A stretch of DNA of 41,744 nt from IMG/VR virus record IMGVR_UViG_2563366971_000005; one strand, written 5' to 3'. The notes beneath the pieces were generated by a model. The model was not told the DNA's origin, did not search any database, and worked only from the letters and a program-made list of their open reading frames with translations. The first letter of the stretch is position 1. Each line of letters begins with the position of its first letter. Both the position numbers and the translations under genes were made by a program. This stretch comes from a virus. Taxonomy: Duplodnaviria; Heunggongvirae; Uroviricota; Caudoviricetes. This document shows positions 31,905-37,901 of this stretch, one piece after another.

Positions 31905-32279
31905 TCACTTAAATTTCGTCGCACGAATAACGTCAATTCCGTTCTCGCTATATCGAAGAGGGTGCTTACCGTCCCTGAGCAGGACAAAACCTGACATCCC
32001 CTCAGGTAGCTGAGCCAGCTTCATCAATGAACGGTTGCGGGGAGACTTCTTATCGACCTCAATGGCACACTGCTGGCCGTCTGATGATGTAACCAGGCAA
32101 CCAATAAACCCTTTACGACCACCGCTGATGCTGATGCTGATGCTGAAATTGCGTTGCAGGTGGTATCCCTGAGACTTGATTTTTTTCTGCATCACATAAT
32201 CGAAAACAACTTTGTCATCGGAGCGAATGAATTGCTCTTCCAGAAGAGCGATTAAATTTTGCTTCAGGTCTTCACTCAT
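31905..32279 (-). CDS. Hypothetical protein
   Basis: 124-aa ORF in early-right operon; no family recognised. Confidence 0.45.
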   Translation of the reverse strand: MSEDLKQNLIALLEEQFIRSDDKVVFDYVMQKKIKSQGYHLQRNFSISISISGGRKGFIGCLVTSSDGQQCAIEVDKKSPRNRSLMKLAQLPEGMSGFVLLRDGKHPLRYSENGIDVIRATKFK

Positions 32280-35241: not shown

Positions 35242-35456
35242 TGGCTAATTTATCCCCTGTATCTGTTGTGCACGAAAAAGTGCAGATCGTTATGACAATT
35301 GAAAATGGCCAAGTCACAGGTGTCTGCAAAGTCCGCGATGGCGAGCTGATTGCCAGCATGGATACATTCATACGGCTGGCAGAAAGAGCGGGGTATCAGA
35401 TAACAGCACCTGCTCAGGAGGAAACCGGTGGCATTAACAGCAACACGCATTCCTGA
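35241..35456 (+). CDS. Hypothetical protein
   Basis: 71-aa ORF, TGATG overlap with previous gene. Confidence 0.4.
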   Translation: MANLSPVSVVHEKVQIVMTIENGQVTGVCKVRDGELIASMDTFIRLAERAGYQITAPAQEETGGINSNTHS

Positions 35457-35642
35457 GCGGATCCACCGGCAGGCATTGCAGGTCCTGTTGTTGTACCGAT
35501 GCCGACGGATATTTCCGCATCGGATACAGCGCACCGGATATCTCAGTCTGAAGGTTAACCGTCGCTGGCGGCTGTTATCGAAAGACGACGGCCGGAACTG
35601 GGAAGTAATGAGTCATGAACGTTATTCGGGAGAAATAAAGAA

Positions 35643-36035
35643 ATGATCGACAACCGCACCGCCAGCGCCATTGACCAGGCATTACAGAAACATGATACAC
35701 CCGTCGGCCCGTTATTTTTTGTAACACGCCACGGAAGAACAAAAAAATGCCTCACCCGAAAAACGGCAATTCGTTACCTGGCATTCTTTATGACCACCCG
35801 CGCTTTTGAACGTTCAGGATTCCGACAACGCTATCCTGACAAGCGTTTTATCTTCAACAGGAATGAGATATGGAAACGTGGAGAATCAACCACAGAGTAT
35901 ACCCGCGCACACCAGCGAACAATCAGACGACTGCGCAGACTCATCGCCAGGAAACAGTATACAGAAAAATGGTTCAGAAAATATGACACATGGAGCGCCG
36001 GATATTACGAACTGATGGCAACAAAACCATTCTGA
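35643..36035 (+). CDS. Hypothetical basic protein
   Basis: 130-aa Arg/Lys-rich ORF. Confidence 0.4.
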   Translation: MIDNRTASAIDQALQKHDTPVGPLFFVTRHGRTKKCLTRKTAIRYLAFFMTTRAFERSGFRQRYPDKRFIFNRNEIWKRGESTTEYTRAHQRTIRRLRRLIARKQYTEKWFRKYDTWSAGYYELMATKPF

Positions 36036-36095
36036 CGTAAACGAAATTAACCATGACGCAATTAAATAAGGCAAGCCGAATACATCAGGAGGACC

Positions 36096-36284
36096 ATGAA
36101 CATTTATTTCAGAATAGTTATATCACTGGCAATTATCACATGTATTTACGGATTAATCGTTCCGGCCCTCATATCAATGAAGGATACGGTAGCAGTGATT
36201 TCTGGCTTTGCTCTGGCGTGTCTGACCCCGCCCTGCATTTATGCCATTTATAAGGGTCTTTCTTTTTCTAAGGATAAAAGATGA
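36096..36284 (+). CDS. Small two-helix membrane protein coupled to SPFH lipoprotein
   Basis: 62-aa ORF, AGGAGGA upstream, two hydrophobic segments; stop overlaps next start (ATGA). Confidence 0.5.
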   Translation: MNIYFRIVISLAIITCIYGLIVPALISMKDTVAVISGFALACLTPPCIYAIYKGLSFSKDKR

Positions 36285-37108
36285 AAAAATTACTTTTTGC
36301 TTTAGCCCTTGTTCTGCCGACCATTGGCCTTGTCGGTTGCGATCGCGTTGAGCCTGGTAATGTGGGCATCAAAGTAAACAAACTGGGCGACGATAAAGGC
36401 GTCGGTGAAGTGGTCGGTGTTGGGCGCTACTGGACGGGATGGAACACTGAGGTTTACATCTTCCCGACCTTTAAGCAGATGAAGACCTACGATGATCCAT
36501 TCAGTTTCCAGATGAGTGACGGTACAACCATCGGCTATCACATCGGCGTGGCCTACAAAGTTGATCCATCCAAAGTTACCACAGTCTTTCAGACCTACCG
36601 CAAAGGCGTGGACGACATTACCGACACCGACCTGCGCCAGAAGATAGCCGACGCACTCAACCGACTGGCCAGCAAAATGACCACCGACAAATTTATCGAC
36701 GGCGGCAAGTCTGAGCTGCTGGATGCAGCTCTTAAAGACATTCAGGAAGAAATGACGCCCATCGGTATTCAGGTAATGAGCCTCTCATATGTGGGTAAGC
36801 CGGAGTACCCGCCTACTGTTATCGACAGCATTAATGCCAAAGTCACGGCCAACCAGAAAACCCTGCAACGCGAGCAGGAAGTCAAGCAACGCGAAGCAGA
36901 GGCAAACATGCTGCGCGCGGAAGCTGCCGGACAGGCTGATGCGATTCGCACAAAAGCCCAGGCCGAAGCCGACGCTATTCGTTTACGCGGTGAAGCTCTG
37001 CGCCAGAACCCAAACGTTATGGAGCTGGAAGCCATCAACAAGTGGAACGGTACACTGCCGCAATACATGACCAGCGGTGCCAACACACCATTTATTCAGG
37101 TCAAGTAA
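36281..37108 (+). CDS. SPFH/Band 7 (prohibitin-like) lipoprotein
   Basis: 275-aa ORF; lipobox LVGC in MKKLLFALALVLPTIGLVGC; Band-7-like core and C-terminal Ala/Glu-rich coiled coil. Confidence 0.7.
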   Translation: MKKLLFALALVLPTIGLVGCDRVEPGNVGIKVNKLGDDKGVGEVVGVGRYWTGWNTEVYIFPTFKQMKTYDDPFSFQMSDGTTIGYHIGVAYKVDPSKVTTVFQTYRKGVDDITDTDLRQKIADALNRLASKMTTDKFIDGGKSELLDAALKDIQEEMTPIGIQVMSLSYVGKPEYPPTVIDSINAKVTANQKTLQREQEVKQREAEANMLRAEAAGQADAIRTKAQAEADAIRLRGEALRQNPNVMELEAINKWNGTLPQYMTSGANTPFIQVK

Positions 37109-37151: not shown

Positions 37152-37901
37152 ATGAATACTGTAACCATCAACAACAAACAGTTTCCGGTAATCGAATATC
37201 GCAGTCAGCGTGTTGTGACATTTGCAATAATTGATGACGTCCACCAGCGCCCGGAAGGTACCGCCCGTGCTGCGTTTAACCGCAACCGTTCTCACTTTAT
37301 CGAAGGGGTGGATTTTCTTGAAATGACTGCGGACGTAATACGTACGGAGTCACTTTCTGATGCCTTTGCCGCGCGAACTGCCAAAGGGATCATTCTTTTC
37401 GAGTCTGGTTACCTGATGTTGACGAAGCCTTTTAACGATGCTCTTGCATGGCAGGTTCAGCGCGAACTGGTTAACAGTTATTTCCGAACTCACGCGCCGC
37501 TGACGGAAATGGAGATGATCGCTGCAATGGCCGCCGATGCCGTTCGCCAGCAGAAGCGCCTGAGTCATGTTGAAGAGAAGATCGAAACGGTCACCAAAGC
37601 TGTGGAGAACATCAAACGCGGCACAATGCGCACCGGATATGTCGGTTACCGCCAGGTGGTAGCCAAAAGCGGAATGAGTGACGCCAAGTGTCGGAATCTG
37701 GTCAACGCCTACCACATCCCTACCGACACGCACGAATTTATGACTCCGGACGGTCTGTTGTCTCGCAGGGCTGTCGTCGAGCTTGAGACATTTATGGTGG
37801 TGTTCCACCAAATGATGTCAGAGGCTGAACCACGCGGCACACGCTGGTATCACCCGAAGATGGGGCTTTTCCAGGTAATCGGATGGGAGGATAAAGCATG
37901 A
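37152..37901 (+). CDS. ORF6N-domain protein (antirepressor-like)
   Basis: Start at MNTVTINNK (ATG 37152) after GGAG; EYRSQRVVT…AAFNRNRSHFIEGVDF…NSYFR resembles ORF6N domain. Confidence 0.55.
   Translation: MNTVTINNKQFPVIEYRSQRVVTFAIIDDVHQRPEGTARAAFNRNRSHFIEGVDFLEMTADVIRTESLSDAFAARTAKGIILFESGYLMLTKPFNDALAWQVQRELVNSYFRTHAPLTEMEMIAAMAADAVRQQKRLSHVEEKIETVTKAVENIKRGTMRTGYVGYRQVVAKSGMSDAKCRNLVNAYHIPTDTHEFMTPDGLLSRRAVVELETFMVVFHQMMSEAEPRGTRWYHPKMGLFQVIGWEDKA

What the first reader, a model, noticed from the sequence alone, without database searches (positions are those of the whole stretch)
36096..37108. Small membrane protein coupled to an SPFH lipoprotein in the early-left operon
A 62-aa two-helix membrane protein with strong SD overlaps (ATGA) the start of a 275-aa lipoprotein that has a lipobox, a Band 7/SPFH-like core and a C-terminal coiled coil. 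Lambdoid early-left operons typically hold exclusion and host-takeover genes (sieB, rex, kil), and lipoproteins often mediate superinfection exclusion. This pair may be an uncharacterised exclusion or abortive-infection module.
Basis: inference. Interest (0 to 1): 0.6.

Follow-up and report, generated by a model that had tools for sequence, protein, structure and literature searches.

The report
Phage SPFH lipoprotein with membrane partner
An E. coli prophage carries a translationally coupled pair of genes, a tiny two-helix membrane protein and a lipid-anchored SPFH (prohibitin/HflK-like) scaffold protein; the same pair turns up in hundreds of virulent and temperate phages, so it looks like a widespread, still uncharacterised device for remodelling the host inner membrane rather than a lysogen-specific anti-phage system.

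Summary
Confirmed. At 36096-37108 (+), a 62-aa two-helix membrane protein gene overlaps by ATGA a 275-aa lipoprotein gene. The lipoprotein has lipobox LVGC with Asp at +2, a Band 7/SPFH domain (Pfam E 8e-31) and a 65-residue helix. The window is a phiP27-like lambdoid E. coli prophage, and the pair sits in the early-left operon.

The pair is a conserved cassette (PHROG 1130 + PHROG 200):
- The partner lies directly upstream in 81 of 82 close loci.
- It is also there in 14-17 of 21 divergent phage lineages, against 3.6% of control ORFs (p 2e-11).
- About 20 of the 142 full-length cluster representatives carry both as one ORF.

The SPFH protein occurs in 434 phage records. The sampled records are mostly strictly virulent phages (N4-like, Vequintavirinae, Ounavirinae, Bruynoghevirus, phiCbK-like, crAss-like, Lak). 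It also occurs in P1-/SSU5-like phage-plasmids, including Y. pestis pMT1. Nothing matches a known defence system.

A lysogen-specific exclusion or abortive-infection role is therefore unsupported. The most likely reading is a periplasm-facing, prohibitin/HflKC-like cage on the inner membrane, built with its partner during lytic development to corral membrane clients; FtsH is the leading candidate. No experiment exists, and superinfection exclusion remains possible. The family is already annotated; the conserved partner and the fusions appear to be new. Interest is moderate.

The parts
36087..36092 (+). Shine-Dalgarno AGGAGG for the small membrane protein gene, 3-nt spacer to the ATG
   Evidence: Read directly from the sequence.
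36096..36284 (+). 62-aa two-helix (hairpin) inner-membrane protein, predicted N-in/C-in, with a conserved short periplasmic turn (VPALISMKDT)
   Evidence: ORF. Hydrophobic segments at residues 1-29 and 31-51. Charge distribution. PHROG 1130, E 1.5e-23. No Pfam, NCBIfam or PADLOC hit. Loop motif P-x-L-[ILV]-S-x-x-D-[TS] shared with partners from distant phages.
36281..36284 (+). ATGA start/stop overlap, implying translational coupling of the two genes
   Evidence: The same 4-nt overlap is seen in 68 of 82 close loci. It is also seen in P88, Fraca, phiE125, Hali and several IMG/VR lineages.
36281..36340 (+). Signal peptide with lipobox L-V-G-C (lipidated Cys20 codon at 36338-36340); the next residue is Asp21, the inner-membrane retention residue under the +2 rule
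   Evidence: The Cys aligns in 91% of 143 family sequences. D-R at +2/+3 in 87 of the 87 close homologues whose N-terminus could be parsed; 33 of the 120 did not match the pattern.
36344..36904 (+). SPFH/Band 7 domain (residues 22-208)
   Evidence: Pfam PF01145, E 8e-31. AlphaFold2 alpha/beta core. Foldseek top hits are HflC/HflK, prohibitin, erlin and stomatin, E 6e-14 to 1e-11.
36812..37006 (+). Single long helix (residues 178-242, Ala/Glu/Gln/Arg-rich), equivalent to the coiled-coil wall helix of SPFH cages
   Evidence: AlphaFold2 secondary structure. It aligns to the coiled-coil region of HflK (residues 114-241) and of prohibitin.
37010..37108 (+). Conserved C-terminal tail (residues 244-275, motif I-N-K-W-N-G-T-L-P) plus stop codon; probably an oligomerisation or cap segment
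   Evidence: W255 and G257 are invariant and P260 is at least 90% conserved among 75 sequences at 32-61% identity. It is disordered in the monomer model, pLDDT below 50.

Best explanation
The two genes form one conserved phage cassette. After Sec export and lipidation of Cys20, the 275-aa protein is tethered to the periplasmic face of the inner membrane; Asp at +2 retains it there. Like its closest structural relatives (prohibitin, HflK/C, stomatin, QmcA), it is expected to assemble through its long helix and conserved C-terminal tail into a ring or cage over a patch of membrane. The 62-aa hairpin protein is made in fixed proportion by translational coupling. It sits in the same membrane with its conserved turn facing the SPFH domain, as co-scaffold, fence or adaptor.

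The cassette is transcribed as part of the early (lytic) programme and acts on the infected or induced cell. It compartmentalises inner-membrane components for the benefit of phage development. The leading candidate client is the FtsH-type membrane protease that the prohibitin/HflKC clade controls.

Shown here: gene structure, family, fold, signal peptide and lipobox, conservation of the pair and its fusions, and its distribution.

Inferred: inner-membrane location, cage assembly, early timing, and the client.

My estimates: scaffold at the periplasmic face of the inner membrane about 0.75; role in lytic development rather than lysogen defence about 0.65; FtsH as the client about 0.25-0.3.
For: Family and fold:
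- Band_7, E 8e-31.
- AlphaFold2 SPFH core plus a 65-residue helix.
- Foldseek hits are all cage-forming SPFH proteins: HflC/HflK 6e-14, prohibitin, erlin, stomatin, flotillin, QmcA-YbbJ.
- The family profile matches prohibitin-1 best (7e-10), then HflK, QmcA and HflC.
- From established knowledge: HflK/C and prohibitins face the periplasm or intermembrane space and partner with FtsH-family proteases.

Topology and location:
- Signal peptide and lipobox; the Cys is conserved in 91% of the family.
- D-R at +2/+3 in 87 of 87 parsable close homologues.
- Cys-less relatives carry an uncleaved N-terminal TM anchor instead and still keep the partner (L148, L155, L158, L167). This places the working site at the inner membrane.

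Coupling:
- ATGA overlap.
- Partner present in 81 of 82 close loci.
- PHROG 1130 partners in P88, N4-like S6, GAP31 and Hali.
- 14 of 21 against 5 of 139, p 2e-11.
- One-ORF fusions of 2TM, signal peptide, lipobox and SPFH in about 20 of the 142 full-length cluster representatives. Their linkers are positively charged, as expected for a cytoplasmic loop.
- The fusion P0002 is seen in two independent assemblies.

Lytic-phase role:
- 434 phage records; the 60-row spread sample is dominated by strictly virulent groups.
- The gene lies in early or middle gene blocks of virulent phages. In TL it follows an annotated sigma-70 promoter.
- In P88 it lies in the early lytic operon, and here inside the early-left operon, with no promoter or terminator excess.
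Against: - There is no experimental datum for any member in the searchable literature.
- No multimer modelling was possible, so cage formation rests on homology at 14-18% identity.
- The +2 residue varies across the wider family (Thr and Ser are commonest), so inner-membrane retention is not shown for all members. Arg at +3 might weaken the Asp signal (my own recollection, not checked).
- A possibly related prophage protein, PM0222 of Pasteurella multocida, was found in outer-membrane vesicles and was expressed in the lysogen (PMC9872710).
- Expression timing is inferred from gene position only.
- Homologues in haloarchaeal viruses infect hosts that, from general knowledge, lack FtsH, which argues against FtsH as a universal client.
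- Some lineages lack the partner, for example phiEa21-4.
Confidence: 0.5

Rival explanations
1. Superinfection exclusion or abortive infection. The lipoprotein and membrane protein alter the envelope so that other phages cannot inject DNA, or they kill the cell on infection. They would be expressed either from the prophage or early in infection, as with T4 Imm/Sp or T5 Llp.
For: - Envelope location, with a lipobox and a 2-TM partner.
- Patchy, accessory distribution with extensive horizontal spread among unrelated phages, as is typical of competition genes.
- Early expression in virulent phages is compatible with exclusion of secondary infections.
- In one P1-like element the neighbouring gene is Tad2-like, i.e. 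it sits in a conflict-gene neighbourhood.
Against: - No PADLOC hit and no PHROG exclusion family.
- Known exclusion proteins are narrow, phage-specific families. This one spans phages of Proteobacteria and Bacteroidota, and archaeal viruses.
- It sits inside an early lytic operon with no detectable promoter of its own.
- In PhiSH19 the adjacent gene annotated 'superinfection exclusion protein' is a soluble acidic protein unrelated to the partner.
Confidence: 0.2
2. A dedicated lysis-lysogeny regulator. A phage-made HflK/C mimic tunes FtsH degradation of a cII-like activator, as lambda cIII does. This is the speculation found in several genome papers.
For: - HflK is the best single-sequence match among solved structures.
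- Topology is the same as HflK/C.
- Position in the early-left operon, where lambda keeps cIII (lambda map from established knowledge).
- The idea is raised in PMC8540360, PMC10269572 and PMC4936722.
Against: - Most carriers sampled are strictly virulent phages with no lysogeny decision.
- HflK/HflC equivalog models score 24-26 bits against cut-offs of 134-159.
- It is a single SPFH species with a lipid anchor, not an HflK-HflC TM-anchored pair.
- No cII homologue was identified in the window (no Pfam hit for 31905-32279).
Confidence: 0.12
3. Lysogenic-conversion or virulence lipoprotein. It would be expressed from the prophage, exported to the outer membrane or vesicles, and act on the animal host, as reported for the prophage HflK/C-like protein PM0222 of Pasteurella multocida.
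For: - PMC9872710 reports PM0222 in outer-membrane vesicles, TLR1/2 activation and an attenuated deletion mutant.
- The window's prophage also carries a pertussis-like toxin.
- 100%-identical copies occur in urine and cerebrospinal-fluid isolates.
Against:
- Asp at +2 predicts inner-membrane retention.
- The family is common in virulent phages of plant, soil and aquatic bacteria.
- The conserved inner-membrane partner has no role in such a model.
Confidence: 0.06
4. Lysis-timing device or spanin-like complex. An inner-membrane protein plus a lipoprotein with a periplasmic coiled coil would regulate holin triggering or disrupt the envelope at lysis.
For: - Superficial resemblance to two-component spanins: membrane protein, lipoprotein, coiled coil.
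- In PhiCrAssBcn2 the gene lies two genes upstream of a peptidoglycan hydrolase.
Against: - The window has its own complete lysis cassette about 11 kb away on the other strand: holin 25728-26003, M15 endolysin 25348-25725, Rz 24838-25332 with embedded Rz1 24927-25112.
- The small protein has no periplasmic domain.
- In most phages the pair lies among early or nucleotide-metabolism genes.
Confidence: 0.05

Closest known systems
HflK/HflC-FtsH complex of E. coli and the mitochondrial prohibitin (PHB1/2)-m-AAA protease complex
   Same: SPFH domain followed by a long coiled-coil helix. The domain sits on the periplasmic (intermembrane-space) side of the energy-transducing membrane. These are the best sequence and structure matches: HflK 2e-4, prohibitin-1 7e-10 and HflK 2e-6 with the family profile, Foldseek 6e-14 to 1e-13. 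They work as cages that corral a membrane protease.
   Different: Only 14-18% identity. The HflK/HflC equivalog HMMs are far below cut-off. There is one SPFH gene, not a heteromeric pair. The anchor is a lipid (lipobox) instead of an N-terminal TM helix. It has its own conserved 2-TM partner. It is encoded by phages. Binding to FtsH is untested.
SPFH-NfeD operons (QmcA-YbbJ, YqiK-YqiJ, archaeal stomatin-STOPP)
   Same: A two-gene, co-directional unit of an SPFH scaffold and a small integral membrane protein. QmcA-YbbJ is among the structural matches (8z5g; QmcA 5e-6). Occasional fusion of the two parts.
   Different: The partner has no NfeD OB-fold domain and no Pfam NfeD hit; it is only a 49-90-aa hairpin. 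From established knowledge, the SPFH domain of QmcA/YqiK faces the cytoplasm, whereas here it is exported.
Phage early envelope proteins that exclude superinfection (T5 Llp lipoprotein, phi80 Cor, T4 Imm and Sp)
   Same: Phage-encoded small membrane protein and/or lipoprotein, made early and acting on the cell envelope.
   Different: No detectable sequence or fold relationship. PHROG and PADLOC give no such assignment. Those proteins are small receptor or injection blockers, not SPFH scaffolds, and they are restricted to narrow phage groups.
PM0222 (Pmorf0222), HflK/C-like protein of a lambda-like prophage of Pasteurella multocida (PMC9872710)
   Same: Prophage-encoded SPFH/HflK/C-like protein of about 25-35 kDa. 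To my knowledge from the searches, it is the only phage-borne SPFH protein with experimental data.
   Different: It was reported as a vesicle-associated virulence factor acting on macrophages. Its sequence could not be compared here, so membership of the same subfamily is unverified.

Membership tests
SPFH / Band 7 superfamily (Pfam PF01145) | Sequence match above the curated gathering score | tested here: met
   107.9 bits against a cut-off of 23.6, E 8e-31, residues 22-208.
SPFH / Band 7 superfamily (Pfam PF01145) | Alpha/beta SPFH fold followed by a long coiled-coil helix | tested here: met
   AlphaFold2 model with pLDDT 76 and a helix at 178-242. Foldseek hits to HflK/C, prohibitin, erlin, stomatin, flotillin and QmcA, all with probability 1.00.
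SPFH / Band 7 superfamily (Pfam PF01145) | Assembly into a large ring or cage on a membrane | not testable with these tools
   Only single-chain prediction was available. The conserved C-terminal KW.G.LP tail is disordered in the monomer model.
HflK / HflC (FtsH modulators; TIGR01933, TIGR01932) | Equivalog HMM score above cut-off | tested here: not met
   hflC 26.0 bits against 134.4; hflK 23.6 bits against 159.4.
HflK / HflC (FtsH modulators; TIGR01933, TIGR01932) | Periplasm-facing SPFH domain | tested here: met
   A Sec-type signal peptide with lipobox precedes the domain. This is a sequence-based inference only.
HflK / HflC (FtsH modulators; TIGR01933, TIGR01932) | Two paralogous TM-anchored subunits encoded side by side | tested here: not met
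   There is a single SPFH gene with a lipid anchor. The neighbour is a 62-aa hairpin protein, not an SPFH paralogue.
HflK / HflC (FtsH modulators; TIGR01933, TIGR01932) | Physical association with FtsH | not testable with these tools
   Needs co-purification or structure determination.
SPFH-NfeD operon | Adjacent co-directional gene for a small membrane protein | tested here: met
   ATGA overlap. The arrangement is conserved in 81 of 82 close loci and 14-17 of 21 divergent lineages.
SPFH-NfeD operon | Partner carries the NfeD (OB-fold) domain, PF01957 | tested here: not met
   No Pfam hit for the window protein at E<=0.1. No NfeD hit appears among the families listed for the 18 diverse partners at E<=10; 25 of 43 families were shown.
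Bacterial lipoprotein (Lgt/LspA/Lnt substrate) | Signal peptide ending in a lipobox [LVI][ASTVI][GAS]C | tested here: met
   L17-V-G-C20. The Cys is conserved in 91% of 143 family sequences.
Bacterial lipoprotein (Lgt/LspA/Lnt substrate) | Inner-membrane retention signal (Asp at +2) in Enterobacterales | tested here: met
   D21-R22. D-R occurs in 87 of 87 parsable close homologues. The actual sorting is untested.
Known anti-phage defence systems (PADLOC-DB v2.0.0) | Match to any defence-system protein model | tested here: not met
   No families at E<=0.1 for either protein or for the three neighbouring proteins.
   The PHROG hits are phrog_200 'lipoprotein', phrog_1130 'membrane protein' and a few weaker or partial families. 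None is an exclusion family.
   The promoter scan shows no excess of sites. RNA and plating assays are needed.
Two-component spanin (Rz/Rz1 type) | Located in the lysis cassette; inner-membrane subunit with a periplasmic coiled coil plus a small outer-membrane lipoprotein | tested here: not met
   The window has its own Rz (PF03245, E 6e-52, 24838-25332) with embedded Rz1 (24927-25112), next to the holin and endolysin. The 62-aa protein has no periplasmic domain.
PHROG 200 (lipoprotein) + PHROG 1130 (membrane protein) | Profile match to the phage orthologous groups | tested here: met
   E 2.3e-115 and 1.5e-23. Partners from P88, S6, GAP31 and Hali, and the N-terminal parts of natural fusions, also hit PHROG 1130.

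The most novel reading that the evidence does not exclude
Phages of many unrelated lineages share a portable two-part nanocage: a lipid-anchored, periplasm-facing SPFH shell plus a dedicated 2-TM subunit. The lineages include temperate lambdoid, P2-like and P1-like phages and virulent N4-like, Felix-O1-like and crAss-like phages. The phages deploy the cage early to fence off part of the host inner membrane. It could sequester FtsH or another quality-control or defence component, or shield the membrane against secondary injection or membrane-targeting abortive-infection effectors. That would be a previously undescribed class of viral host-membrane takeover device, and the first function for an exported, lipoprotein-type SPFH protein.
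Probability: 0.3. Interest if true: 0.7.

Novelty: new variant of a known kind. Interest (0 to 1): 0.45.

Why it matters
SPFH cages (HflK/C, prohibitin, stomatin, flotillin, erlin) have become a major theme in membrane biology since 2022. What viral versions do is unknown. The only statements I could find in the literature are annotation-level guesses, or that the reason for its presence 'remains unclear' (PMC13239085, PMC8540360, PMC10269572).

This work shows four things about the phage version:
- It is a distinct exported, lipid-anchored subfamily.
- It comes with a conserved hairpin partner and is sometimes fused to it.
- It is spread over hundreds of virulent and temperate phages and phage-plasmids, including Y. 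pestis pMT1.
- It is therefore unlikely to be about lysogeny or lysogen defence alone.

This gives a compact two-gene system that can be tested in E. coli. It could reveal how phages manipulate inner-membrane organisation or FtsH-type proteolysis. It could also serve as a minimal model for SPFH cage assembly.

Tried and rejected
- PADLOC scan of both proteins and three neighbours: nothing.
- NCBIfam: only sub-threshold HflK/HflC/FloT hits.
- NfeD, T4 Imm-type or holin identity for the small protein: Pfam scans of the window protein and of 18 diverse partners gave only scattered chance-level hits. A profile search of solved structures found nothing.
- Own promoter or terminator for the pair: the consensus scan gave fewer promoter-like sites than shuffles and nothing flanking the pair.
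- Spanin idea: rejected, because the window has its own Rz/Rz1 cassette.
- 'Superinfection exclusion protein' next to the SPFH gene of PhiSH19 (PMC3220722): inspected and found to be a soluble acidic protein unrelated to the partner, so it gives no support.
- Literature: eight full-text searches (SPFH with prophage, anti-phage, phage defense, superinfection exclusion, phage-encoded or abortive infection; 'band 7'; stomatin/prohibitin) returned no functional study of a phage SPFH lipoprotein. The 'band 7' hit in the phiCbK paper refers to gel bands.
- PM0222 could not be compared because only its accession is given.
- IMG/VR scans with the window protein returned only near-identical loci. Divergent queries were needed to reach other lineages.
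- I did not run the genome contigs or metagenome scans, the third large protein search or a second structure prediction. They would not have discriminated between the functional hypotheses.
Full report
**Observation.**
- The window holds an ORF at 36096-36284 (+, 62 aa) and an ORF at 36281-37108 (+, 275 aa). They overlap in the sequence ATGA.
- The first ORF is preceded by AGGAGG at 36087-36092, with a 3-nt spacer.
- The 62-aa product has two hydrophobic stretches, residues 1-29 and 31-51. It has a neutral five-to-six-residue turn and a +3 C-terminus. This makes it an N-in/C-in hairpin under the positive-inside rule.
- The 275-aa product starts with a signal peptide ending in the lipobox LVGC (Cys20), followed by Asp-Arg.
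- It matches Pfam Band_7/SPFH at E 8e-31 over residues 22-208.
- An AlphaFold2 model (30-sequence alignment, mean pLDDT 76) shows the SPFH alpha/beta core, one uninterrupted helix at 178-242 and a low-confidence tail.

**Context.**
- The region is 100% identical to prophages in several E. coli chromosomes, for example strain Combat2C1.
- The RefSeq annotation places the pair in a co-directional array. The array runs from a LexA-family repressor through small accessory genes to excisionase and integrase, next to yecN/cmoA.
- The element is phiP27-like. phiP27 L05 is 97.5% identical, and the small ORF is present there but unannotated.
- A consensus scan gives no promoter or terminator flanking the pair and no excess over shuffles. 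On present evidence the pair is simply part of the early-left transcription unit.

**The pair is a conserved cassette.**
- The two proteins belong to PHROG 1130 ('membrane protein', E 1.5e-23) and PHROG 200 ('lipoprotein', E 2.3e-115).
- Among 82 close loci the small gene lies directly upstream in 81. The exception is a contig that begins at the SPFH gene.
- PHROG 1130 partners also precede the SPFH gene in P2-like P88, the N4-like Erwinia phage S6 and the Pseudomonas phage Hali. In the Vequintavirinae phage GAP31 the partner is one ORF removed.
- phiE125, Y. pestis pMT1 and Fraca have equivalent small ORFs.
- I clustered the SPFH proteins of all fetched loci at 80% identity, giving 21 clusters. 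An ORF of at most 140 aa with at least two predicted TM helices ended within -350 to +90 nt of the SPFH start in 14 clusters. The same was true for 5 of 139 other long ORFs in the same loci (Fisher p 2e-11).
- By inspection 17 of 21 clusters have the partner. These include an unannotated 71-aa ORF in a crAss-like phage.
- The partners share a turn motif, P-x-L-[ILV]-S-x-x-D-[TS].
- About 20 of the 142 full-length 50%-identity cluster representatives are single ORFs of 320-390 aa. They consist of the 2-TM module, a positively charged linker, a signal-peptide-like helix with lipobox, and the SPFH protein. The N-terminal parts of two that I tested hit PHROG 1130, at 1e-12 and 7e-9.
- One such fusion, P0002, occurs in two independent assemblies.
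- These fusions support functional coupling. They also fit the predicted topology: in-out-in for the hairpin, then out for the SPFH domain.

**Distribution.**
- tblastn finds the SPFH protein in 434 of 50,697 phage records.
- The spread sample includes many strictly virulent groups: Schitoviridae (S6, Pylas, MY01), Vequintavirinae (GAP31, KpS8), Ounavirinae (phiEa21-4), Bruynoghevirus (TL), phiCbK-like Caulobacter phages, crAss-like phages, Lak megaphages and jumbo phages. More distant relatives occur in haloarchaeal viruses.
- It also occurs in 630 plasmid records. Of these, 599 are non-mobilisable, and the sampled ones are mostly 90-115 kb. I read them as P1-like and SSU5/pHCM2/pMT1-like phage-plasmids, and they include Y. 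pestis CO92 pMT1.
- It is present in 542 of 5426 complete E. coli genomes.
- In the 1.84-billion-protein representative library there are 230 clusters at E<1e-30 and 978 at E<1e-10.
- In virulent phages the gene lies among early or middle genes. In TL it sits downstream of an annotated sigma-70 promoter. In others it sits among nucleotide-metabolism or replication genes.

**Family features.**
- Across 143 sequences the lipobox Cys aligns in 91%. The motifs FPTF, YR.G..EIT and a C-terminal KW.G.LP are conserved. W255 and G257 are invariant among 75 sequences at 32-61% identity.
- The residue after the Cys varies in the wider family. It is Asp-Arg in all 87 close enterobacterial homologues that could be parsed.
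- Some distant relatives lack the Cys and have an uncleaved N-terminal TM helix, yet they still keep the 2-TM partner. This has two consequences. The site of action is the outer face of the inner membrane. The partner is more than a substitute anchor.

**Relationship to known proteins.**
- Foldseek against the PDB returns only cage-forming SPFH proteins: HflC/HflK (6e-14), prohibitin, erlin, stomatin, flotillin, QmcA-YbbJ and the major vault protein shoulder.
- By sequence, the single protein matches only HflK (2e-4). The family profile matches prohibitin-1 best (7e-10), followed by HflK, QmcA and HflC.
- The HflK/HflC equivalog models are far below threshold.
- The partner matches no Pfam family consistently, including NfeD, and no solved structure.
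- No PADLOC defence model matches either protein.

**Literature.** Eight full-text searches found no experimental study of a phage SPFH lipoprotein.
- Genome papers either call its role unclear (PMC13239085; PMC8540360) or speculate on an HflK/C-like effect on lysogeny (PMC8540360, PMC10269572, PMC4936722).
- The one experimental paper concerns PM0222, an HflK/C-like protein of a Pasteurella multocida prophage. It is found in outer-membrane vesicles and contributes to virulence (PMC9872710). I could not verify that it belongs to this subfamily.

**Interpretation.** The well-supported layer is structural. This is an exported, lipid-anchored, prohibitin/HflKC-like SPFH protein made together with a dedicated hairpin membrane protein.
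- By homology it should form a ring or cage on the periplasmic face of the inner membrane.
- Its abundance in strictly virulent phages, and its position in early lytic operons of temperate ones, indicate a role in the infected or induced cell. They argue against protection of a lysogen.
- The client is unknown. From established knowledge, the two relatives that share its topology, HflK/C and prohibitins, both control FtsH-family proteases. This makes FtsH the leading candidate, at about 0.25-0.3.
- General stabilisation or insulation of the inner membrane, and early superinfection exclusion, remain open.
- Against FtsH as a universal client: homologues exist in archaeal viruses.
- Against exclusion: the family's breadth, and the absence of any relationship to known exclusion or defence proteins.
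- The spanin and lysis idea is rejected. The window has its own holin, M15 endolysin and Rz/Rz1 cassette at 24838-26003 on the other strand.

**Verdict.**
- The exclusion or abortive-infection interpretation is not supported as stated, although early superinfection exclusion cannot be excluded.
- The proteins are already annotated and grouped in public resources, so the feature itself is not new.
- As far as the searchable literature shows, three points are new: the conserved two-gene (and fused) architecture, the exported lipoprotein-type anchoring, and the predominance in virulent phages.
- I rate it a new variant of a known kind, of moderate interest (0.45). It is a compact and experimentally tractable candidate for a viral membrane-scaffolding function.

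Noticed in passing
window 26444-27790 (- strand), just downstream of the Q antiterminator gene 27961-28308: Toxin cargo at the position where Stx phages carry stx. It consists of a 262-aa ADP-ribosyltransferase (Pfam Pertussis_S1 E 1.4e-15, Scabin-like 2.7e-8) and a 141-aa ORF that RefSeq annotates as a subtilase-family AB5 toxin binding subunit. This looks like a pertussis-like AB5 toxin prophage. Identical prophage segments occur in urine and cerebrospinal-fluid isolates.
   Followed up: partly
window 37898-38467 (+): A 189-aa protein two genes downstream of the pair resembles half a DNA polymerase III beta sliding clamp (Pfam DNA_pol3_beta_2 E 0.005; TIGR00663 dnaN E 2e-4; some RefSeq genomes call it 'beta clamp domain-containing protein'). 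Its best PHROG (3007) is labelled 'RusA-like Holliday junction resolvase', which looks like an inconsistent annotation.
   Followed up: no
window 35428-35646 (+): A 72-aa ORF with a ParE-like toxin domain (Pfam PF24732, E 3e-17) lies in the early-left operon, overlapping the next gene (35643-36035, PHROG 1886, unknown function). No antitoxin was identified.
   Followed up: no
L090 2284-2499 (Bacteroides phage PhiCrAssBcn2); L002 4006-4194 (phiP27); L171 about 2435-2640, - strand (Salmonella phage PhiSH19): Small two-helix membrane ORFs directly upstream of the SPFH gene are missing from the deposited annotations of these phages. The PhiSH19 ORF has a strongly basic loop and may belong to a different family or be spurious.
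   Followed up: partly
P0002 (L169 4001-5044) and about 20 of the cluster representatives P0152-P0296: Natural single-ORF fusions of the 2-TM partner, a signal peptide with lipobox, and the SPFH protein. If the lipobox is still processed, one translation product would be cleaved into the two usual proteins.
   Followed up: partly
L169 5729-6304: In a P1-like 94-kb element, the next called gene downstream of the fused SPFH gene (about 0.7 kb away) has a Tad2-like domain (PF11195; Tad2 is a Thoeris anti-defence protein). This hints that the cassette can sit in conflict-gene neighbourhoods.
   Followed up: no
L095 2797-3831 (Yersinia pestis CO92 plasmid pMT1): The plague plasmid pMT1 carries the same pair: a 66-aa ORF followed by an SPFH protein 80% identical to the window's. 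It lies among recombinase and exonuclease genes of its phage-plasmid backbone.
   Followed up: no
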